A DNA stretch of 64,000 nt from an uncultured Candidatus Saccharibacteria bacterium (GTDB lineage Bacteria > Patescibacteriota > Saccharimonadia > Saccharimonadales > JACDBH01): the NCBI GenBank assembly GCA_964431415.1, contig CAYSJS010000003.1:36422-100421 (forward strand), in the 5' to 3' direction. Each line of letters opens with the position of its first letter. Position 1 is the stretch's first letter. Below the pieces are notes generated by a model. The model did not search any database. It worked only from the letters and a program-made list of their open reading frames with translations, and was not told the origin of the DNA. Shown piece by piece: positions 10,467 through 20,426 of the stretch. A program made the position numbers and the translations under genes.

Positions 10467-12230
10467 CTAGTACAGTTTGTTGCGAGACAAGCCACCCCAC
10501 TCAACCACCGTAAAGCCACTACGCTTTTGAGCGCTTAAACTTTGCTTTGGCATTGCAACTGGCGTGTCATATCCGGCCATATCTAGGAAAACACGGAGCA
10601 TCGTGTCCGGCTTTGGCGTAATGGTGAGTGGTGCAAGCTGATTGAGCTGCTCGGTCGTAAACCACGTTAAGCGCACGTATTGGTTGTTCGGAATCTTCAT
10701 GCCCCAATATTCCATAAAGTCGGTTACCTCCGCTCCACGCAAGCCTTGCTCACGGAGCTGCCTTTCAATCGTAGTATGTGCGTCTTGGCGCCGTACCACC
10801 GTTCCGCTTGAAATACTTGGGTACTCTCCATGCCCTGGCCCTTCCCAAAACAGTGAGCCATATGTTCGGCCTTGTACATTTAGCAAACCACTAGGCCACG
10901 CAAACGCATTCCAGCCCGTTCTGGGATCGTACTGCGGGTCAGATATTTTAACATCAGCGCCGACTTTTACCGTAACCACCTGCGGAACGGATGGATATAA
11001 ATAGACAACCGGTTTAGCACAGCCGCCGATCGGTGCATACTCATCGCTTGTATAGATTAATATGCCGTTATTAGGACTTTGGAAAGCAAAAATGGCGTGA
11101 TTTTTTATAAAATCTTCGAGGCTCATATTGGCCTTCTTGGCATCGGCACCCACATAAAATTCTTTTGTTTCTTGGTACGCTTTTTGGACTATGGTGTTAC
11201 CAGAATCTTTAAAATGATATAGCTGCTGGCCTGTAGCGGTTTTTCCTGCCGGCACGAGATCCTGCAGTGTTACTTCTTCTCCGCGGCTTACCGAAACACC
11301 CGAGCCGCAGCCTCGCACAATACCCCCGAACTTGCCGGTCACAGTAGTGCCGTTATCCCAGATTATTCCCGCAAAATCTTCCTTTAGCGGTACATAGGTC
11401 ATGGTTATTTCGGTTGCTATGGGAGTCTGGACGCGGTAACTAATTGCCGTAAGTTTTGTGTCGGCATATGTCTTTTCTACCTTGACGAGCTTGCTCCCCC
11501 CATATGTTTTTACAACCGTCGTCTTGATGCCACTGCTATCTTTGGGCAAGCTCGTGCCAACAGTCGGCCATTCCGGAAGGGTTAATACCTCTGAATTTTC
11601 AAGCTGCAACTGTGCCGGCACGCTTAACGAATCGTAATGCTGCGTCGTGTTGATGGTTATATTTGAAGCTACTCCATCCGCAATCCTGTCGTACTCCGTT
11701 GAATACGTTTGGTTTGCATTTGGATGCAAAATTAAACTAACCTGACCAGACTCGGTTTTTTCAAAAAGGTGCGTAAACTCACCAGCGTCGTATACGCGCG
11801 CTTTAATAATAGTAACGTTACCCCGCTTGCCTACCTCGTAATATTTGACCATCTCGGCATCTTCTTTATTGTAAGTAGTATCCAAATATCCTTGGAGGGG
11901 CATTTCTTTTGGTTCTGTGTACCATGTTTCGCCAGTTGTGGGAGCGGCAAATTTCTTGAGTAACTTTTCGGTTTCCGTGTCGGCAACGATCGTCGCTTCT
12001 TTTGGTGCAGAAACCGCCGGTGTTTGCTCGCTGGTAGATGGCGCTGCCGCCTTTTCTCTGCCAAGGATAAAGTAGCCGATTATGGTTGCAGCAATAAACA
12101 GCAACACCCCAAAAATAATAATTTGTTTTTTATGAAAGCGACTTGGCTTTTTTGGCTTGGCAACCGTGCTTTCAGCGGCTGCGGAGGGCGCTTTATTTTC
12201 TTCGGTTCTTTGCAGAGATTCAGGATCCAT
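10467..12230 (-). CDS. Hypothetical membrane-anchored extracytoplasmic protein (587 aa)
   Basis: Basic and Ala-rich N-terminus, then a TM helix (IIIFGVLLFIAATIIGYFIL), then a large mixed alpha/beta domain. No recognised motif. Confidence 0.5.
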   Translation of the reverse strand: MDPESLQRTEENKAPSAAAESTVAKPKKPSRFHKKQIIIFGVLLFIAATIIGYFILGREKAAAPSTSEQTPAVSAPKEATIVADTETEKLLKKFAAPTTGETWYTEPKEMPLQGYLDTTYNKEDAEMVKYYEVGKRGNVTIIKARVYDAGEFTHLFEKTESGQVSLILHPNANQTYSTEYDRIADGVASNITINTTQHYDSLSVPAQLQLENSEVLTLPEWPTVGTSLPKDSSGIKTTVVKTYGGSKLVKVEKTYADTKLTAISYRVQTPIATEITMTYVPLKEDFAGIIWDNGTTVTGKFGGIVRGCGSGVSVSRGEEVTLQDLVPAGKTATGQQLYHFKDSGNTIVQKAYQETKEFYVGADAKKANMSLEDFIKNHAIFAFQSPNNGILIYTSDEYAPIGGCAKPVVYLYPSVPQVVTVKVGADVKISDPQYDPRTGWNAFAWPSGLLNVQGRTYGSLFWEGPGHGEYPSISSGTVVRRQDAHTTIERQLREQGLRGAEVTDFMEYWGMKIPNNQYVRLTWFTTEQLNQLAPLTITPKPDTMLRVFLDMAGYDTPVAMPKQSLSAQKRSGFTVVEWGGLSRNKLY

Positions 12231-13442: not shown

Positions 13443-14375
13443 TTAATACCGCACGCGCTTTTCGGCTTGGCGCCGGAGTGTAGTCAGCTGATCCCTGCGG
13501 CCCAGCCAAAACGCAACTATAGTCATAAGCGCTGATACGGCAAGCGGCCACCAAAGCACCACCTGCCGTACCGTCGCCTTTGTTACATCTGCCGTATTGT
13601 TCTGCACTGCGCCGTTAGCAACCGCCACAACCTGCAAAAATGCCGTATTACCGTTCGCATCCGTTACCTTGACGACCACGGTATAGGTCCCGGCACTTGT
13701 GTAGGTATGTTTTACGGTAAAAAGCCCTCCCGCGCTCCGGCTTACCAAGTCGGTTGTGCCATCACCCCAGTTTACGCTTACCGCAAACGGTGCCGTACCA
13801 CCGCTGATAGAGAACGGCCATTCCAGCTCCTCGTTTGGGTTAGCTCCTCGTTTGGCAAAAAAGCTAGTCAAAGAGACACGCGGACCCGAGGCATTAAACC
13901 CGGTTTGGTTATAGGTAACTTTTACAGTATTAGAATCTGGCCCTTGCTGATCAAGTGCATCATATATACGGACAACAATGTTGTTTTCGCCGCTAAACAA
14001 GTCCACAGACAAGCTATAGCTGCCGTTAAGACACTGCGCGGAACCTACAAACACGCCGTTTGAAAATACCTTTACGAGTACATCTCCGCTACACAAGCCG
14101 CTAACTGTAATTGGTATGGCGGTCACCGTCTGACCGTTTTGAGGAGTCGTGACGGTGGGAGCCACAGAAGGTGGGTCAGCTGGTATTACCGCCTGGAGTC
14201 CTGATGATTGCGAAGCCGGACCCGGATCCGCATGCATTTTTCCTGTCATTAACGCAACACTAAGCACACTCAGCAAGCAAAACGCTATAAGTCGCATAAA
14301 ATAGAGTCTAGAGTAGGCACGAGTCATTAAACTGATTATAGCAAACCTTTTATGCTTTACTCTAGCAACACCCAA
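13443..14375 (-). CDS. Secreted PKD-domain protein with a C-terminal membrane anchor
   Basis: Signal peptide (LIAFCLLSVLSVALMTG). PKD-like block (VSVNWGDGTTD...HTYTSAGTYTVVVKVTDANGNTA). C-terminal hydrophobic helix followed by basic residues (LWWPLAVSALMTIVAFWLGRRDQ). Confidence 0.55.
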   Translation of the reverse strand: MGVARVKHKRFAIISLMTRAYSRLYFMRLIAFCLLSVLSVALMTGKMHADPGPASQSSGLQAVIPADPPSVAPTVTTPQNGQTVTAIPITVSGLCSGDVLVKVFSNGVFVGSAQCLNGSYSLSVDLFSGENNIVVRIYDALDQQGPDSNTVKVTYNQTGFNASGPRVSLTSFFAKRGANPNEELEWPFSISGGTAPFAVSVNWGDGTTDLVSRSAGGLFTVKHTYTSAGTYTVVVKVTDANGNTAFLQVVAVANGAVQNNTADVTKATVRQVVLWWPLAVSALMTIVAFWLGRRDQLTTLRRQAEKRVRY

Positions 14376-14384
14376 ATGGGGTAT

Positions 14385-15350
14385 CTAGCGGCGCTTACTG
14401 CGGCGATTTTGCAAACGATGCACCAAGATGTATCCGGCAACAACAACCGCTACAAGCAGAACCAATCCGGCAATCACCGCCCAGAGCGGAACATACCAAA
14501 AGCTCGTTTTAGCGTTTATGAGGTCATTATCTGCCGATGGCTCATAGCCCAAGCTCGCCGTTACGGTGTAGTGACCAAACCACTTTTTCTTGCCCAGAGC
14601 TGTTTCAAACTTTCGTATGCTGTTAGGCAGGACGTTAGAGCGCGGTTCTTCGTTGTTGATCTCGACATTTGCTACCACTTTGCCACGCGAATCTTTAACC
14701 TGAATTTTTCCGTACGGCTTTTCGTGCGTATCACCATCGTTCTTAAGCCTTGTGACAATGCTCACATCGCCCCCAGTAATAAACTTTTTAGTTTTACCGT
14801 TAACGGCTGCACTTATTTGCTCAAGGGCGAGATGCTGCTTTATGTCACCGGGGACATTCACTAAAAAGAGCGACCCGACGCTTGCGGTCAGGTTGACGTT
14901 TGCTTGGCTGGCGTTATCGGCAGGAACAAAACGAACCGCCCCATAATAGCCGCCCGCTGCAGCGTCTGCGGGGATAGATATGGTAATATACACATCCTTA
15001 CGCTCATTAGCGGCTATGGTAAAGTCCGGAACACTCTGAACCAGCTTCTTCAGGCTGTGACTGGAGGCGGTTGCCCCATCCAGCAGCAACTGTGGCTGCC
15101 CACTTTCGGAATCGCTGGGAATAAAATCGTTAATCAGGGCTCGAACTTTCATCGGCAAGCCGGTTGGGTTCTCTACCGTTATTCTCTCCGTGCCCGATTT
15201 GCCTTTTTCTATAGTCATTTCGTTACGAATAGGCGAAACCCGGAAGCCGTTAGCGGTTTGGTTGGTGGACTGTGCAAAAGCCGAGCCGTTCATAATTGCC
15301 AGCAATGCAAGTACGGTTAGTACGCGACCAAGTCGCTGTAACATTTTCAT
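14385..15350 (-). CDS. Signal-peptide protein with an Ig-like N-domain resembling PapD-like pilus chaperones / DUF916 cell-surface proteins, plus a C-terminal TM anchor
   Basis: Signal peptide MKMLQRLGRVLTVLALLAIMNGSAFA. FRVSPIRNEMTIEKGKSGTERITVENPTGLPMKV matches the 'RvI.p....ges.sltv.N.g..p' start of PapD_N/DUF916 domains (from memory). The C-terminus is a TM helix plus a basic tail (VIAGLVLLVAVVVAGYILVHRLQNRRSKRR). Confidence 0.45.
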   Translation of the reverse strand: MKMLQRLGRVLTVLALLAIMNGSAFAQSTNQTANGFRVSPIRNEMTIEKGKSGTERITVENPTGLPMKVRALINDFIPSDSESGQPQLLLDGATASSHSLKKLVQSVPDFTIAANERKDVYITISIPADAAAGGYYGAVRFVPADNASQANVNLTASVGSLFLVNVPGDIKQHLALEQISAAVNGKTKKFITGGDVSIVTRLKNDGDTHEKPYGKIQVKDSRGKVVANVEINNEEPRSNVLPNSIRKFETALGKKKWFGHYTVTASLGYEPSADNDLINAKTSFWYVPLWAVIAGLVLLVAVVVAGYILVHRLQNRRSKRR

Positions 15351-15472
15351 AACGATTGTAATATACCCCTAGAATTTAATGATAACGCACTTATGGTAAC
15401 AGAGAATTCGTGTCGTTGTCCATCTAAAAAGCACTAGTGGTTTTTACTACAATTACCTAGAATAGAGTTAGT

Positions 15473-16147
15473 ATGTACAGAATCGGGCACCGGAAAAAGC
15501 GCATTCGTCATCACGTTGTTGTGATTAGTTTGGTGGTTTTTGTAATCGCTGCAGTTACAGGCAGTATCTTTTGGCTTTTGCTACTCCGTTCGGACGTCAC
15601 GTATATTGAACAGACCGAACCTGGCACCCAAACGTTTGACCCAGAAGAAGCCAACAAGAATGTAAAAATAGATACCCCGCTCTATACTATGGAACTGCCA
15701 AAGGACTGGAAACAAATCAGCCAGAACAAGGACGACCGTTACGCAAGCACGGAATGGCAGTTACAGACAGGCATGTCCAACCGGTGGATCGAGTTATACA
15801 CCGACCGCATACCGCCAGAGAAAGTGTTTAATAAAATTATCCCCGTCACCATCAGCAACAACGTTATAGTTCCGGAGGCCGCTTCAGACAACTGTATTAA
15901 ATTCACCCAGTCATCCAGTACAAGCCTGATTGTGGCATCAAAATGGCAGAATGCTCCTTTCTTATGTGATTTTAGCCACTGGAACGACAATATTGTTGGT
16001 GTCTCCGAAAAGAATAAAGGTACAGTTTTCTCACTAACCGGCCCCTCGAAGGGTACGCACACATACATGTTCGTCTATACAGACAGAGGCATACCAGAAG
16101 ATTCACAGCCAATTATAACCGCGCTTTCTACACTGCGGCCAAAATAG
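15473..16147 (+). CDS. Hypothetical bitopic membrane protein (N-in, one TM, extracytoplasmic domain) embedded in the surface-protein cluster
   Basis: Basic N-terminus, then TM VVVISLVVFVIAAVTGSIFWLLLL, then a 180-aa hydrophilic domain. It is the only plus-strand gene inside the cluster. Confidence 0.45.
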   Translation: MYRIGHRKKRIRHHVVVISLVVFVIAAVTGSIFWLLLLRSDVTYIEQTEPGTQTFDPEEANKNVKIDTPLYTMELPKDWKQISQNKDDRYASTEWQLQTGMSNRWIELYTDRIPPEKVFNKIIPVTISNNVIVPEAASDNCIKFTQSSSTSLIVASKWQNAPFLCDFSHWNDNIVGVSEKNKGTVFSLTGPSKGTHTYMFVYTDRGIPEDSQPIITALSTLRPK

Positions 16148-16149
16148 TT

Positions 16150-17211
16150 TTAGTAGTTTCCGACCGCTAAGTAGGTAATGGTCGTAGCATAGTACCCAGA
16201 CGGCTGGCTGGCATTTATATTCACGATGTAACTCGCCGTAAATATGCGGTAATTGTCAGGACCACCGACGCTTGCGATCGCATCGCCGTTTTTAAAGATA
16301 TAATTATCAGGAACGGCATAATTCCCTACCGGCGATGCACTTCCCGGACCGCTCGGCTCGGCGCCTACATTGGGCGCAATATTACTGCGCAAGTTCATAC
16401 CAAACTGGTTGGTTCCCGGTAGAGAAACGCTAAGCGTACTGAGCGGGGGCAAAACATTGTTGCCTGACGTGAGCGAATTACCCAAAACACTGATCGTATA
16501 GCCGTTGTCGGCGTTGGTTGCCGCCGCAAACTGAGATGTTCCGCTTTTGGCTGTCGCCGTAGAAAGCGCCCCAAAATCAACAATCGAACCGACCGGCGCC
16601 GTACAATCATTGGTTGTGATTGTCGTCCCAACACATAAGTCAATGTAAGGCGGAACGGTTGTCGAAATGGTCAAATCGCCCAAAATTGCATAGGCGATAC
16701 CGGCGGCATCAGTCAGGGCCCCTCCGGCGCTCGCGCCCGAAAATATTTGTAACCGCACGTACTGCGAACCTACGTTGTCGGGGTTTTCTACGCCCCCTAG
16801 TTCGAACCGAAAGCTCGTGGCATTAACCGCGCTTGGCGGGCGAGAAAGCACTATTTTATGCGCATTAGTCATAGGAATGTCTTTAAAAAAGTCGTTAGTG
16901 CCCGACTGCGAAAGTATGGTTGCAGAGCTAATATCAAAACCGCTCGGCACCGTACAAGACGTGCCTGGGAAAGGGTCGTTTTCGCAAAATTCAATTTCTA
17001 CTGATCCGATCGTGGTCGTAGAAATCGTATCAAAACCTATCTCATATGTTACGCCCACATGCCCGGCAACACTGTCAGACAATTTGACATATCTATTGGG
17101 TAAGGTGCTCGAAAAAGCACCGGTATGCGTAAGCGGTCTTACTGTCATAAGTAAGACCGCTAAGCCTAAGATGAGCAGGCTCTTTTTGTGATCACCTACA
17201 CGTAGACGCAT
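16150..17211 (-). CDS. Secreted Thr/Ser/Gly-rich protein, paralog 1 of 3, with two SCPU/Csu-pilin-like repeats
   Basis: Signal peptide. Two Cys pairs (FCENDPFPGTSC; LCVGTTITTNDC). QFGMNL motif. C-terminus ...FTASYIVNINASQPSGYYATTITYLAVGNY-COOH is clearly homologous to the C-termini of the next two ORFs. Confidence 0.5.
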   Translation of the reverse strand: MRLRVGDHKKSLLILGLAVLLMTVRPLTHTGAFSSTLPNRYVKLSDSVAGHVGVTYEIGFDTISTTTIGSVEIEFCENDPFPGTSCTVPSGFDISSATILSQSGTNDFFKDIPMTNAHKIVLSRPPSAVNATSFRFELGGVENPDNVGSQYVRLQIFSGASAGGALTDAAGIAYAILGDLTISTTVPPYIDLCVGTTITTNDCTAPVGSIVDFGALSTATAKSGTSQFAAATNADNGYTISVLGNSLTSGNNVLPPLSTLSVSLPGTNQFGMNLRSNIAPNVGAEPSGPGSASPVGNYAVPDNYIFKNGDAIASVGGPDNYRIFTASYIVNINASQPSGYYATTITYLAVGNY

Positions 17212-17238
17212 GTAACCGCCTTTCCCTTTATTTAGGGC

Positions 17239-18405
17239 CTAGTAAACACCGGTCGCGATAAAGGTAAAGGTAGAGGTATAGACACCGGATTTGGTCGTGG
17301 TTGAGGATTTGCCTACAAAATCAACGGTAGTCGCCGCTTCAGTGGTTGGGCCGGCTGTCGTTACGATAGTATCCCCGTAAGTAACTGCCAGGTTGGTCGA
17401 GTCGAAGCTGTGGTTACCGGCAGCGCAAGCGTATCCAGCGTCAACAGTATGACCCGACCCTGCCGTAGCCGAGAGACCGAACTGTTCAACCGATGCTGTG
17501 GTAGAATCTGCCGTACACGATCCAGATCCTGAGCCTATTGCGGCAATCGTGTTCGCTCCAGAGGTCAGTGTGCCCGTTGCTTTAGCGCGAACCGTCACAC
17601 CAGTAGTTGCGTTACTTGCAATGCCCAGCTTTGCAGTAAGCGGCGTTGTTGCATTGGTTGAAGTGAGGTAAGCGGTGGTAGTGCTAGACAGCACGCCGAA
17701 TGAGTCACCAAGCACCATACCGGCCACGGAACCACCAGCACAGTTAGCGCCCGTGGTGTACACACAGAAGGTCAATGTTTCCTGAACCTTAGCGGTCACG
17801 GTGATCTGCGCAGCAGTAGAGAGCGCAACACCGCCTTCATCAACATGAGTTGCACCCGTGTCTGGGTTTGCAACGGTATAGCTCGTAGCACCGGCAGTTA
17901 CAGAGTACGTGTAGATACGTGCATAAAACGTACCAACTGCGCTTGTTGGGTTCTGTACGTTATTGATCGTAAAGTCGGCAACAGTCGCATTAGTAAAAGA
18001 CACGCCGGTTGCCTGAGTGAGTAGTAGGGTGCGACCTGAGTTTGCGGATGCGGCCGTCCATGTCTGTGTATTCATCGGAGTTGTGTTCATAGTGACAGAC
18101 GGCGAGCCACCAACAGTAAAGTTGGTCGGAGCAGTACAGGTCGTGTCGCCAATAATAGGTGAGTTGGCACAAAAGTCTATAACGATACCGCGACCGGTAT
18201 AAGTTGAAGTGGTGGTAAATTTCACATTATAAGAGGTAGTAGCCGTACTTCCAGCGTTACTAGAATTGCTCATTTGGATCGAACGTGACGTGACCTGGCC
18301 TGCCGAGGCAGCTTGCGGTCTTAGTGCCAGCACAGGCACCAGGGCAAGTACCACTGCCGAAGCGACGTAGGCGATCCGCTTGAGTAAGCGAGTCAAAATT
18401 AACAT
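17239..18405 (-). CDS. Secreted Thr/Ser/Gly-rich protein, paralog 2 of 3 (SCPU/Csu-pilin-like)
   Basis: Signal peptide (VASAVVLALVPVLAL). Cys pairs FCANSPIIGDTTC and FCVYTTGANC. EQFGLSA motif. C-terminus KSGVYTSTFTFIATGVY-COOH. Confidence 0.5.
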   Translation of the reverse strand: MLILTRLLKRIAYVASAVVLALVPVLALRPQAASAGQVTSRSIQMSNSSNAGSTATTSYNVKFTTTSTYTGRGIVIDFCANSPIIGDTTCTAPTNFTVGGSPSVTMNTTPMNTQTWTAASANSGRTLLLTQATGVSFTNATVADFTINNVQNPTSAVGTFYARIYTYSVTAGATSYTVANPDTGATHVDEGGVALSTAAQITVTAKVQETLTFCVYTTGANCAGGSVAGMVLGDSFGVLSSTTTAYLTSTNATTPLTAKLGIASNATTGVTVRAKATGTLTSGANTIAAIGSGSGSCTADSTTASVEQFGLSATAGSGHTVDAGYACAAGNHSFDSTNLAVTYGDTIVTTAGPTTEAATTVDFVGKSSTTTKSGVYTSTFTFIATGVY

Positions 18406-18517
18406 ATCATAATTTCCTTTTTATTTTTTATCTATACAGTTGAAATTTAGCATAATCAGTATACGCTTGCAAACAGATATTATGCGTAGTTATCCACAGG
18501 TTACGTTAAACGCACAG

Positions 18518-19312
18518 TTAGTAGCCGGCAGTAGCCACTAAAACGTGATTCATCGTGTACAAGCCAGACGGCGTTGTATTGGCAATGTTTAAAATATACG
18601 AAATCGTAAAGTCTGTACGCCCACTACTCTTGGTCGACTGCGCAATGATATCCCCATTGGCATATTTGTAAGAGTTAGCCGTGTTATAACCGCTTGCCGC
18701 CGCACCATAGCTAAATGTTCCATCTGGTATCTGTACCGGCGCCGAGCCAAAAGAAGTGCTCGGCAGACAAAGTGCACAGGTGTTGGCCATAAGATTTATA
18801 CCAAACTGCTCGGTCCCGACCGCAGAAGCGGTTGCCGTCCCGGGCGATGCCATGGTATGGCCGTTGTATGTTGGCCCAACAGAGGCGTTGCGCACCACAT
18901 ACCCACTGGAAACATACGCTTTTACATAAAATGTAGCCGTGCCCTGCGACGTCGAAGCGACCGACTGCTGACCCAGCGCAACTGTCGAGCCGTTTACTAC
19001 AAATTCTATGTACTCATCACGCGGTGTTATTGGACCGGCCTCGGCTGCGTAATTGGTGCTGGCAGCACCTCCCACACCTAGCGCACCCGTACTTCCGTTA
19101 GCCGAATAGTTTGGGCTGCTCAGATTATTTTCACCACCAGTCCCAAAGGAGTATTCATAGGTAGAATAGCTCGGCGATGACGACGTCTGCGCCCACGCCG
19201 CGCTTGGTACCAATGCAGCCAAAAAGACCACAAGGAGCGCTCGCCAAAATGTTTTGATTACTCTTTTACTCATACCGTAGTGACTATTATATAGCGCTTT
19301 TGCTTCTTGCAC
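18518..19312 (-). CDS. Secreted Thr/Ser/Gly-rich protein, paralog 3 of 3 (single SCPU/Csu-pilin-like domain)
   Basis: Signal peptide (RALLVVFLAALVPSAAWA). CALC pair. EQFGINL motif. C-terminus FTISYILNIANTTPSGLYTMNHVLVATAGY-COOH aligns residue-by-residue with paralog 1. Confidence 0.5.
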   Translation of the reverse strand: MQEAKALYNSHYGMSKRVIKTFWRALLVVFLAALVPSAAWAQTSSSPSYSTYEYSFGTGGENNLSSPNYSANGSTGALGVGGAASTNYAAEAGPITPRDEYIEFVVNGSTVALGQQSVASTSQGTATFYVKAYVSSGYVVRNASVGPTYNGHTMASPGTATASAVGTEQFGINLMANTCALCLPSTSFGSAPVQIPDGTFSYGAAASGYNTANSYKYANGDIIAQSTKSSGRTDFTISYILNIANTTPSGLYTMNHVLVATAGY

Positions 19313-19409: not shown

Positions 19410-20422
19410 ATGAACCAAGATCCTTCTTCACTTGAAAGCAATAGCCTCGAGACCCCGGAACCGATTCAACCCGGTACGCTGCCCGGTTCTGGTGCTAATT
19501 CGGAAGCTCCTGCGCCTGCACCGTCCGATACGGGTGTAGTAGATCCAGATGCGCCAAAAAATGGAGCAAACGGTCCGAAAGAGAGGCTGCTCGGTCGCCT
19601 GCTAGGGAAACTAAATATCTATTCGGTGCTCTTAATCGTCGTTATGCTCATTTTAGTCGTAGCGACTATTCTTGCTCTCAGGCAAAACAGAATTTCAACC
19701 AACAAGAGCGCCCTCAAAACCCAGGAGCTTACCCAGGAAGCCATCGATAAACTGGCAGAAACCTCACCCACTGTCGGCAGCGCATCCGAAACCCTAAACA
19801 TCGCTTCAAATGCCATATTTAATGGCAGTATTCTCGTTAAGGGCGGGATAGACGTTGCCGGCGGACTAAAAATAGGTAGTGCCCTCTCGTTGCCCACAAT
19901 TAGCGTTGGCGATACGGCGACTGTCGAACTCTTGGCCGCAAAAAGAATAACAGTTGCCGGTGACACCGCCGTTCAAGGCAAAATGACCATCCAAAACGGT
20001 TTAAGTGTCATTGGTGGCGGCACATTTAGTGGACCACTTTCTGCTTCCCAGGTAACAACAGACAAATTGCAGCTGAATGGCGATCTGCAACTCACCCAGC
20101 ACATCGACCCGAACGGCGTATCGCCAAGCCGAACCAATGGCAGCGCACTAGGCGGCGGCGGTACTGCATCCGTAAGCGGCACCGATACAGCCGGAACAGT
20201 TGTAATTAATACAGGCAACAGCGCGCCCGCTGGTTGTTTTGTAACCATTAACTTTACAAAAGCTTTCACGGGTACCCCGCACGTCGTTATTTCGCCCTCC
20301 AGCTCAACTGCCGCAACGCTCAATTACTACACCAACCGTAGCACCGGCAACTTTAGTATCTGTAGTGCTGGCGACCCACCAGACAACACCGCCAACATTA
20401 CTTTCGACTACATCGTCATTGA

Positions 20423-20426
<4 letters not shown>
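19410..20426 (+). CDS. Membrane-anchored protein with a Gly-rich beta-solenoid-like repeat ectodomain
   Basis: Acidic and Pro-rich N-terminus, then TM (IYSVLLIVVMLILVVATILAL). Repeats of the type GSILVKGGIDVAGGLKIGSALSLPTISVGD / ITVAGDTAVQGKMTIQNGLSVIGGGTFSG are reminiscent of bactofilin or other beta-helix repeats. It is divergent from the paralog operon. Confidence 0.45.

What the first reader, a model, noticed from the sequence alone, without database searches (positions are those of the whole stretch)
13443..19312. Candidate undescribed surface-fibre system: three tandem SCPU/Csu-pilin-like paralogs plus a membrane-anchored PapD/DUF916-like protein in a monoderm-type genome
Seen in sequence:
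- Three consecutive minus-strand genes (16150-17211, 17239-18405, 18518-19312) encode signal-peptide proteins that are extremely rich in Thr/Ser/Gly/Ala/Asn.
- They are unmistakable paralogs. Each has a closely spaced Cys pair upstream of an FG motif (QFGMNL / EQFGLSA / EQFGINL).
- Each ends in a nearly superimposable C-terminal strand finishing on a free Tyr: ...PSGYYATTITYLAVGNY, ...KSGVYTSTFTFIATGVY, ...PSGLYTMNHVLVATAGY.
- Two of the three carry the Cys-pair unit twice, i.e. tandem domains.

From memory:
- The Pfam SCPU ('spore coat protein U' / CsuA/B sigma-fimbrial) domain has the same landmarks: an N-terminal Cys pair, an FG motif, and a C-terminal '...aGtYtDtvtvtVtY' strand.
- Chaperone-usher subunits use a C-terminal aromatic/carboxylate strand to dock in the PapD-like chaperone cleft.

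Neighbouring gene:
- The adjacent gene (14385-15350) encodes a signal-peptide protein whose N-domain begins FRVSPIRNEMTIEKGKSGTERITVENPTGLPMKV, the Arg-containing first strand typical of PapD_N/DUF916 Ig-like domains.
- Unlike a periplasmic chaperone, it ends in a TM helix plus a basic tail. That is the architecture of DUF916/DUF3324 partners in Gram-positive WxL-type surface loci.

What is missing:
- No usher-sized beta-barrel gene, no sortase gene and no LPXTG motif occur in the cluster.

Inference: a chaperone-assisted, usher-independent, donor-strand-type polymer or surface complex adapted to a single-membrane envelope, possibly relevant to attachment or episymbiosis. I am not aware of a described system of this kind.
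Basis: partly seen in the sequence, partly recalled or inferred. Interest (0 to 1): 0.85.

Follow-up and report, generated by a model that had tools for sequence, protein, structure and literature searches.

The report
Pam pilus operon of a Saccharibacterium

The parts
18518..19312 (-). PamT: single-domain tip pilin. It has only the truncated Ig-like C domain and no donor linker. The real start is probably Met14 at 19273.
   Evidence: NCBIfam NF058579 CPR_pilus_PamT scores 282.7 bits against a cut-off of 240. It aligns only to the C domain of the other two pilins. A Gly/Pro-rich segment replaces the linker.
17239..18405 (-). Two-domain shaft pilin in the PamA/PamB-like position (388 aa). This family varies in copy number among relatives.
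   Evidence: NF058581 Pam pilin C domain scores 62.9 bits against a cut-off of 55. It is a full-length paralog of pil353: E 7e-21 and hhalign 100% over 335 columns. Related loci carry 0-5 copies.
17779..17814 (-). Inferred donor (linker) strand of the 388-aa pilin, AAQITVTAKVQE (residues 198-209).
   Evidence: The family consensus ALST..i.vTakVqE.l.FC is conserved. In the solved homologues the linker strand is the donor strand. This assignment is an inference.
16150..17211 (-). Two-domain pilin in the PamE position (353 aa). It is single-copy and almost always lies immediately upstream of the chaperone. It is the likely base or adaptor subunit that receives the PamR strand.
   Evidence: NF058581 scores 159.4 bits. 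The AlphaFold model has pLDDT 95.7, with an N beta-sandwich at mature residues 9-145, an unpaired linker at 146-157 and a C domain at 158-321. pil353-chaperone-PamR are adjacent in 68 of 74 loci.
16645..16680 (-). Inferred donor (linker) strand of the 353-aa pilin, GDLTISTTVPPY (residues 178-189).
   Evidence: In the monomer model this segment has no paired strand and lower pLDDT (81-85). VPPYLxFC is at least 80% conserved in 76 orthologues. V154, P155, P156 and C161 are invariant or nearly so in A2.
15473..16147 (+). Opposite-strand gene embedded in the cluster (224 aa, N-terminal TM segment), function unknown. It is lineage-specific and probably not a core Pam component.
   Evidence: It occupies this position only in the closest relatives L001-L003 and in near-identical contigs L081-L083. 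It has no Pfam, NCBIfam or PHROG family.
14385..15350 (-). Membrane-anchored Pam chaperone (PamC/PamD type). It has a signal peptide, two Ig-like domains with a flexible loop before the last strand of domain 1, then a C-terminal TM helix (about 14388-14486) and a basic tail.
13443..14375 (-). PamR: RbmA-like protein with two Ig/FnIII-PKD domains and a C-terminal TM helix. It is the proposed terminator and membrane anchor. The real start is probably Met17 at 14327.
   Evidence: NF058578 CPR_pilus_PamR scores 374.6 bits against a cut-off of 300. Pfam finds PKD_4 and Glucodextran_B Ig-like domains. Its role is taken from the preprint.
14169..14201 (-). Inferred N-terminal donor strand of mature PamR, GLQAVIPADPP (residues 59-69).
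   Evidence: The consensus of 86 orthologues is GLqGtIs.pPP, which resembles the pil353 linker LTISTTVPP. The preprint's AlphaFold complexes insert the PamR N-terminus into PamE. This assignment is an inference.
19410..20426 (+). Conserved, divergently transcribed neighbour (338 aa, N-terminal TM anchor, Gly/Thr-rich beta-rich ectodomain). This is the 'tail fibre-like protein' of the published neighbourhood analysis. Whether it belongs to the pilus system is unknown.
   Evidence: It is divergent from PamT in 51 of 51 loci. It gives only weak Pfam hits to Bactofilin (E 0.0045) and H_lectin (E 0.084) and no PHROG hit. The preprint places a tail fibre-like gene centrally in the pam neighbourhood.

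Best explanation
**What it is**
The region is a pam (CPR-type pilus) operon of an uncultured Saccharibacterium, in the common minimal form with one chaperone.

**How it most likely works**
1. All products are exported by Sec.
2. The TM-anchored two-Ig-domain chaperone (14385-15350) caps the open groove of each pilin's C-terminal truncated Ig domain with one of its own strands.
3. PamT (18518-19312) has a groove but no donor strand, so it starts the fibre at the distal tip.
4. The two-domain pilins then add one by one: the 388-aa shaft type first, then the 353-aa PamE-position type. Each inserts its inter-domain linker strand into the groove of the previous subunit (donor-strand exchange).
5. 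PamR (13443-14375) inserts its conserved N-terminal strand into the last pilin. Its C-terminal TM helix ties the fibre to the cytoplasmic membrane.
6. No usher, sortase or ATPase is involved.
7. The fibre probably mediates contact with the host bacterium.

**What is shown and what is inferred**
- Shown here: orthology, the predicted folds and the co-conservation of the genes.
- Shown elsewhere by cryo-EM, for homologous pilins: filament formation by linker-strand exchange.
- Inferred: the chaperone action, the order of assembly and the PamR termination step.
For: - NCBIfam equivalog and domain hits are above their cut-offs for PamT, PamR and both pilins.
- The preprint describes the same parts list and a cryo-EM donor-strand filament.
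- The pilin model has an N beta-sandwich, an unpaired linker and a C domain.
- The linker and the QFG / C-terminal strand are the most conserved segments.
- PamT aligns to the C domain only.
- The mature N-terminus of PamR is conserved and resembles the pilin linker.
- The chaperone model matches the fimbrial chaperones CfaA, EcpB, SafB, CupB2 and FimC, and also WxLIP. It has a low-confidence loop before the last strand of domain 1.
- The gene order is conserved: 47 of 50 spanning loci are complete, and pil353-chaperone-PamR are adjacent in 68 of 74.
- Homologues come only from Saccharibacteria/Patescibacteria.
- The cluster has no LPXTG motif and no usher.
Against: - There is no experimental evidence for this organism.
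- I could not run multimer predictions, so chaperone-pilin and pilin-pilin strand insertion are untested for these sequences.
- The chaperone, order-of-assembly and terminator roles rest on AlphaFold complexes in a preprint, not on experiments.
- No NCBIfam Pam model matched the chaperone.
- I could not decide whether the chaperone is PamC-type or PamD-type. Two clades exist, and their positions are swapped in L058.
- An opposite-strand gene splits the cluster into two transcription units.
- Promoter and terminator scans found no more sites than in shuffled sequence.
Confidence: 0.82

Rival explanations
1. It is a WxL-type, non-filamentous cell-surface complex. The TM-anchored DUF916-like protein would simply hold the secreted Thr/Ser-rich proteins on the envelope by completing their beta-sandwich, as proposed for WxLIP and WxL proteins in Firmicutes. 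No polymer would form.
For: - The chaperone family is a sequence-level relative of WxLIP: 92 of 92 members hit PF06030.
- The only tblastn hits in the plasmid collection are DUF916 proteins.
- The architecture runs parallel: a small domain-only protein, larger proteins ending in the same domain, and a TM-anchored two-Ig protein.
Against: - The subunits are not WxL domains. There is no PF13731 hit, and hhalign against a WxL sequence or profile gives at most 10%.
- Orthologous pilins form filaments in cryo-EM.
- The conserved linker, PamT and PamR fit a polymer with a tip and a terminator.
Confidence: 0.08
2. It is a degenerate archaic (sigma/Csu, SCPU-domain) chaperone-usher pilus that lost its usher.
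For: - The C-terminal aromatic strand, Cys pairs and FG motif are superficially similar.
- The chaperone fold resembles the CU chaperones.
Against: - 0 of 3 window proteins and 0 of 84 relatives hit PF05229 or any fimbrial Pfam family at E <= 1.
- CsuA/B ranks 51st, behind many generic Ig-like domains.
- hhalign of the pilin profile against FimA gives 0.4%, and the chaperone profile against FimC gives 0.3%.
- The subunits have two domains with an internal donor strand.
- The chaperone is TM-anchored and related to WxLIP.
Confidence: 0.03
3. It is a sortase-type Gram-positive pilus or a covalently wall-linked adhesin set.
Against: - None of the seven cluster proteins has an LPXTG-like sorting signal, apart from a non-terminal LPGSG in tf338.
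- The cluster holds no sortase-like gene.
- The pilins end in a free aromatic residue, not in a TM segment with a basic tail.
Confidence: 0.02

Closest known systems
Pam pilus system of Ca. Mycosynbacter amalyticus (Troman et al. 2026, bioRxiv 10.64898/2026.03.03.709456; NCBIfam NF058578, NF058579, NF058581)
   Same: - It has the same parts: the PamT tip pilin, two-domain pilins with the Pam C domain, a TM-anchored PapD-like chaperone, and the RbmA-like PamR with a TM helix.
- It has no usher.
- It has the same neighbourhood: ATP synthase genes and a tail-fibre-like gene.
- It comes from the same class, Saccharimonadia.
   Different: - This locus has one chaperone and two two-domain pilins (353 and 388 aa). 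M. amalyticus has two chaperones (PamC, PamD) and three such pilins (PamA at 55 kDa, PamB, PamE).
- No second pilin-plus-chaperone module exists anywhere in the window.
- An extra opposite-strand gene (15473-16147) is inserted here.
- The single-chaperone form is the majority among relatives: 44 of 50 loci.
WxL clusters of Firmicutes (WxLIP = DUF916 + DUF3324 + TM helix; Hassan et al. 2023, PMC10599100; PDB 9i1y)
   Same: - The chaperone is a sequence and structure relative of WxLIP over both domains, and it has the same C-terminal TM anchor.
- WxLIP is predicted to donate a strand that completes the partner's beta-sandwich.
- Both clusters combine a domain-only small protein with larger proteins that carry the same domain at the C-terminus.
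   Different: - The partner proteins are not WxL domains.
- No polymer has been reported for WxL proteins.
- The window protein itself scores 21 bits on PF06030, below the gathering score of 27.3.
- No member reaches DUF3324 (PF11797) at E <= 0.01.
Classical and alternate chaperone-usher pili (Pap/Fim, CFA/I)
   Same: - The principle is the same: donor-strand complementation and exchange.
- There is a tip subunit with no donor strand and a terminator subunit.
- The pilins have a conserved C-terminal aromatic strand.
   Different: - There is no usher and no outer membrane.
- The chaperone is membrane-anchored and shows no detectable sequence relation to FimC (0.3%) or to PapD_N.
- The pilins have two domains, and the donor strand is internal rather than N-terminal.
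Archaic Csu pili / SCPU domain (PF05229)
   Different: There is no sequence match to PF05229. The Pam pilins have two domains and an internal donor strand, there is no usher, and the chaperone family is different.

Membership tests
Pam pilus system (CPR-type) | PamT tip pilin (NCBIfam equivalog NF058579) | tested here: met
   18518-19312 scores 282.7 bits against a cut-off of 240, covering profile positions 9-241 of 241.
Pam pilus system (CPR-type) | PamR RbmA-like terminator/anchor with a C-terminal TM helix (NF058578) | tested here: met
   13443-14375 scores 374.6 bits against a cut-off of 300. The C-terminal hydrophobic segment and basic tail are visible in the sequence.
Pam pilus system (CPR-type) | Two-domain pilins: N beta-sandwich, linker strand, C-terminal truncated Ig domain (NF058581) | tested here: met
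   The two pilins score 159.4 and 62.9 bits against a cut-off of 55. The model shows an N domain, an unpaired linker and a C domain at pLDDT 95.7.
Pam pilus system (CPR-type) | PapD/FimC-like chaperone carrying a C-terminal TM helix | tested here: met
Pam pilus system (CPR-type) | Conserved operon context next to ATP synthase and a tail-fibre-like gene; restricted to CPR | tested here: met
   47 of 50 spanning loci are complete, and tf338 is divergent from PamT in 51 of 51. Named homologues are Saccharibacteria/Patescibacteria.
Pam pilus system (CPR-type) | Polymerisation by insertion of the linker strand into the neighbouring subunit's C domain | not testable with these tools
   No multimer prediction was available. 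Indirect support comes from the conserved linker and from the unpaired linker in the monomer model.
SCPU / Csu archaic chaperone-usher pilins (PF05229) | Match to the SCPU profile | tested here: not met
   No hit at E <= 1 for the three window proteins or for 84 family members.
SCPU / Csu archaic chaperone-usher pilins (PF05229) | Specific structural similarity to CsuA/B | tested here: inconclusive
SCPU / Csu archaic chaperone-usher pilins (PF05229) | Usher and soluble periplasmic chaperone encoded with the subunits | tested here: not met
   The cluster has no usher-sized gene, and the chaperone is TM-anchored.
Classical chaperone-usher chaperones (PapD_N PF00345 / PapD_C) | Sequence membership | tested here: not met
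   0 of 92 family members hit PapD families at E <= 0.01. hhalign against FimC gives probability 0.3%.
Classical chaperone-usher chaperones (PapD_N PF00345 / PapD_C) | Two-Ig-domain chaperone fold | tested here: met
WxL cluster (WxLIP plus WxL proteins) | WxLIP: DUF916 + DUF3324 + TM helix | tested here: met
WxL cluster (WxLIP plus WxL proteins) | At least two WxL-domain (PF13731) proteins in the cluster | tested here: not met
   There are no PF13731 hits. hhalign of the Pam pilin profiles against a WxL sequence or profile gives at most 10%, over signal-peptide columns only.
Sortase-dependent Gram-positive pili | C-terminal LPXTG sorting signal and a pilus sortase | tested here: not met
   The pilins, chaperone and PamR have no LPXTG. 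The cluster has no sortase family hit. The rest of the window was not scanned for sortases.

The most novel reading that the evidence does not exclude
Pam chaperones and the Firmicute WxL-interacting proteins (DUF916-DUF3324-TM) may form one ancient superfamily of membrane-anchored donor-strand chaperones of single-membrane bacteria. If so, WxL clusters and Pam operons would be two descendants of one usher-free, chaperone-assisted surface-assembly pathway.

- The layouts run parallel: a domain-only subunit, larger subunits with the same domain at the C-terminus, and a TM-anchored chaperone.
- WxL proteins might then also be assembled, or even polymerised, by strand exchange.
- The chaperone homology is well supported here.
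- Extending it to the subunits and to the mechanism is not supported at the sequence level and remains open.
- The Pam preprint text does not mention WxL or DUF916.
Probability: 0.3. Interest if true: 0.6.

Novelty: already known. Interest (0 to 1): 0.27.

Why it matters
Saccharibacteria and other CPR bacteria live attached to host bacteria, and the fibres that make first contact are central to that lifestyle. This locus shows that the recently solved Pam pilus exists in a further uncultured lineage, in its simplest form: one chaperone, a tip subunit, two pilins and a terminator.

The comparison of 80 genomes suggests that this five-gene core is the rule, and that the two-chaperone operon of the model organism is the exception.

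The chaperone also proves to be a sequence relative of the WxL-interacting proteins of enterococci, lactobacilli and Listeria. That link could help explain how those virulence-associated surface clusters are put together.

Tried and rejected
- **PDB sequence searches.** Searches with the pilins, the chaperone and both family profiles found nothing meaningful. The Pam structures are not in this PDB copy.
- **Full-length Foldseek of the pilin against PDB.** It gave only low-TM (about 0.2) matches to two-domain adhesins and integrins. This was uninformative because the inter-domain geometry differs.
- **SCPU and fimbrial membership.** Rejected.
- **A second Pam module elsewhere in the window.** None found by phmmer against all six-frame ORFs.
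- **N domain as a duplicate of the C domain.** Rejected.
- **WxL domain as a relative of the Pam C domain.** Rejected at the sequence level. The WxL profile was shallow, with 20 Paenibacillus sequences.
- **PapD-family sequence membership of the chaperone.** Rejected.
- **tblastn of the chaperone against plasmids.** It gave only E about 1 hits. They served as a lead to a real WxL cluster, not as evidence in themselves.
- **Promoter and terminator scan.** Counts were no higher than in shuffled sequence (10 vs 8.1 +/- 3.0, and 13 vs 8.7 +/- 2.9), so I make no operon-structure claim.
- **PHROGs.** No family for the tail-fibre-like neighbour, orf224 or the 587-aa protein.
- **PamC versus PamD assignment.** Not possible, because the M. 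amalyticus sequences could not be retrieved.

Full report
**1. Observation**

- 13443-14375 (310 aa)
- 14385-15350 (321 aa)
- 16150-17211 (353 aa)
- 17239-18405 (388 aa)
- 18518-19312 (264 aa)

Two plus-strand genes also belong to the picture. One is embedded in the cluster at 15473-16147 (224 aa). The other is a divergent neighbour at 19410-20426 (338 aa). The flanks are housekeeping genes: alaS and mnmA on one side, ATP synthase subunits on the other.

The three Thr/Ser/Gly/Ala/Asn-rich proteins (47-59% of residues) are genuine paralogs.
- The 353- and 388-aa proteins align end to end (27% identity, E 7e-21).
- The 264-aa protein aligns only to their C-terminal about 150 residues (E 8e-11).
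- Profile-profile probabilities between the three families are 98.6-100%.
- The QFG motif and the C-terminal ...G.Y strand are present in all three, and both are conserved across dozens of orthologues.

Two details in the finding are wrong.
- In the 264-aa protein the Cys pair lies after the EQFG motif, not before it.
- The two larger proteins are not tandem repeats of one domain. N and C halves share no detectable similarity, and the C-domain model matches once per protein.

**2. Identity**

Pfam gives nothing for the three paralogs, and in particular no SCPU hit. NCBIfam release 20 identifies the system directly.

| Gene | NCBIfam model | Score (bits) | Cut-off (bits) |
|---|---|---|---|
| 18518-19312 | CPR_pilus_PamT | 282.7 | 240 |
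| 13443-14375 | CPR_pilus_PamR | 374.6 | 300 |
| 16150-17211 | CPR_Pam_pilin_C | 159.4 | 55 |
| 17239-18405 | CPR_Pam_pilin_C | 62.9 | 55 |

These models derive from a 2026 preprint. It solved cryo-EM structures of two pilins, PamA and PamB, from Ca. Mycosynbacter amalyticus.
- Each linker inserts into the next subunit's C domain, which is donor-strand exchange.
- The operon also encodes PamE (a third two-domain pilin) and PamT (a single-domain tip pilin with no linker).
- It encodes PamC and PamD, which are PapD/FimC-like chaperones with a C-terminal TM helix.
- It encodes PamR, which is RbmA-like, has a TM helix and is the proposed terminator and anchor.
- There is no usher.
- ATP synthase genes and a "tail fibre-like" gene are conserved neighbours.

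The window matches this description part for part.

**3. Own structural tests**

The chaperone-like protein gave a confident model from a 92-sequence alignment (pLDDT 91.8). It has two beta-sandwich domains, a low-confidence loop just before the last strand of domain 1, and a long C-terminal helix.

The 353-aa pilin model has pLDDT 95.7.
- The N-terminal sandwich covers mature residues 9-145.
- An unpaired segment at 146-157 has reduced confidence.
- The C domain covers residues 158-321.
- pTM is 0.60, which fits two domains with no fixed mutual orientation in the monomer.

**4. Co-conservation**

A scan of species-representative genomes returned 80 loci, almost all labelled Saccharibacteria or Saccharimonadales. 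The best is only 66% identical, so this species is not among the representatives. I classified the ORFs of these loci with the window proteins as queries.
- 47 of the 50 loci that span the region carry PamT, the pil353-type pilin, the chaperone and PamR between the tail-fibre-like gene and mnmA.
- pil353-type, chaperone and PamR are directly adjacent in 68 of 74 loci.
- The tail-fibre-like gene is divergent from PamT in 51 of 51 loci.
- 44 of 50 loci have one chaperone and 5 have two.
- The pil388-type pilin varies from 0 to 5 copies. The pil353-type pilin is a single copy.

This fits a variable shaft and a conserved base (PamE-position) subunit. The opposite-strand 224-aa gene occupies this position only in the closest relatives (L001-L003, L081-L083), so it is not a core part.

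**5. Sequence predictions of the donor-strand model**

- The linker is among the most conserved segments in both two-domain families: VPPYLxFC in one and ALST..i.vTakVqE.l.FC in the other.
- PamT has a Gly/Pro-rich stretch at that position.
- PamR orthologues share a conserved mature N-terminus, GLqGtIs.pPP. It resembles the pil353 linker LTISTTVPP, as expected if PamR caps the last pilin by strand insertion.
- All three pilin families keep a C-terminal aromatic residue.
- The chaperone keeps an Arg in its first strand (SPVR) and an invariant Arg in GGYYGAVRF. These might anchor the pilin carboxylate as Arg8 and Lys112 of PapD do. I could not check the geometry.

**6. Relation to known families**

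- **SCPU/Csu.** Membership is not met. None of 84 relatives hits PF05229 at E <= 1. The pilin profile against FimA gives 0.4%.
- **PapD-like chaperones.** The chaperone has no detectable sequence relation to them. No member hits PapD_N, and hhalign against FimC gives 0.3%.
- **WxLIP.**
  - 92 of 92 family members hit PF06030, best E 4.5e-10.
  - The only tblastn hits in the plasmid collection are annotated DUF916 proteins.
  - The family profile aligns with a bona fide Paenibacillus WxLIP over both domains: 97.3%, E 2.7e-11, 242 columns.
  - The WxLIP literature predicts that a disordered hairpin of DUF916 becomes a strand that completes the WxL beta-sandwich. That is the same principle.
- **WxL domain.** The Pam pilins are not WxL domains, so the locus is not a WxL cluster.
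- **Literature.** The preprint text contains no mention of WxL, DUF916 or Csu. Only one paper in the library, a 2013 review, holds both "WxL" and "donor strand".

**7. Verdict**

The finding is real, and the mechanistic inference was largely right. The system is already described and already carries curated models, so this is an ordinary instance of a known, though very recently discovered, system.

Two things go beyond the preprint text, and both are modest.
- The single-chaperone T-(shaft)n-E-chaperone-R core is the common form.
- By sequence, the chaperone belongs to the WxLIP superfamily.

Three things remain unresolved.
- Whether the chaperone is of the PamC or the PamD type. Two clades exist, and their positions are swapped in L058.
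- What the tail-fibre-like neighbour does.
- Direct evidence for strand insertion with these sequences.

Noticed in passing
window 19410-20426 (+): A 338-aa protein with an N-terminal TM anchor is divergently transcribed from PamT in 51 of 51 related loci. It gives only weak Pfam hits to Bactofilin (E 0.0045) and H_lectin (E 0.084), and no PHROG hit, although the preprint calls it 'tail fibre-like'. It may be an unrecognised component or adhesin of the system.
   Followed up: partly
window 15473-16147 (+): A 224-aa gene with an N-terminal TM segment sits on the opposite strand between the PamE-position pilin and the chaperone. It is found there only in the closest relatives (L001-L003, L081-L083) and has no family assignment.
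   Followed up: partly
P0161 residues 49-163 (homologue of window 16150-17211, N domain): 12 of 84 pil353-family members give borderline hits to Pfam DUF2808 in the N-terminal sandwich domain (best 25.1 bits against a gathering score of 25.3). DUF2808 is a family of unknown function. This may hint at a relative of the Pam pilin N domain outside CPR.
   Followed up: partly
L026-L029, L043, L058: Loci with two chaperones show two clades (40-44% vs 27-31% identity to the window chaperone). In L058 the clade that resembles the window's chaperone lies at the end of the operon, not between pil353 and PamR. Position therefore does not define the PamC or PamD type.
   Followed up: partly
L062, L068 and others: The pil388-type shaft pilin gene varies from 0 to 5 tandem copies between species, while the pil353-type pilin stays single-copy. 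This suggests diversification of the exposed shaft.
   Followed up: no
L023, L031, L045, L069, L074, L075, L077, L078: A second ORF with similarity to PamR lies downstream of alaS in several loci. It may be only a shared PKD/Ig domain and was not examined.
   Followed up: no
L008, L027, L046; P0077, P0171: Some records with the same Saccharibacteria-type synteny are labelled Limnocylindria, Pseudomonadota or Verrucomicrobiae. These are probably mis-binned or mislabelled MAG contigs, not evidence for Pam pili outside CPR.
   Followed up: no
window 10467-12230 (-): A 587-aa protein with an N-terminal TM segment lies between mnmA and alaS. It has no Pfam, NCBIfam or PHROG family and is present in only a minority of related loci (for example L003, L011, L036, L053, L054, L067).
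   Followed up: no
window 1-64000: About 40 of the 45 ORFs of at least 250 aa lie on the minus strand. GC skew is negative in nearly every 2-kb bin, which fits a single replichore with strongly co-oriented genes.
   Followed up: no
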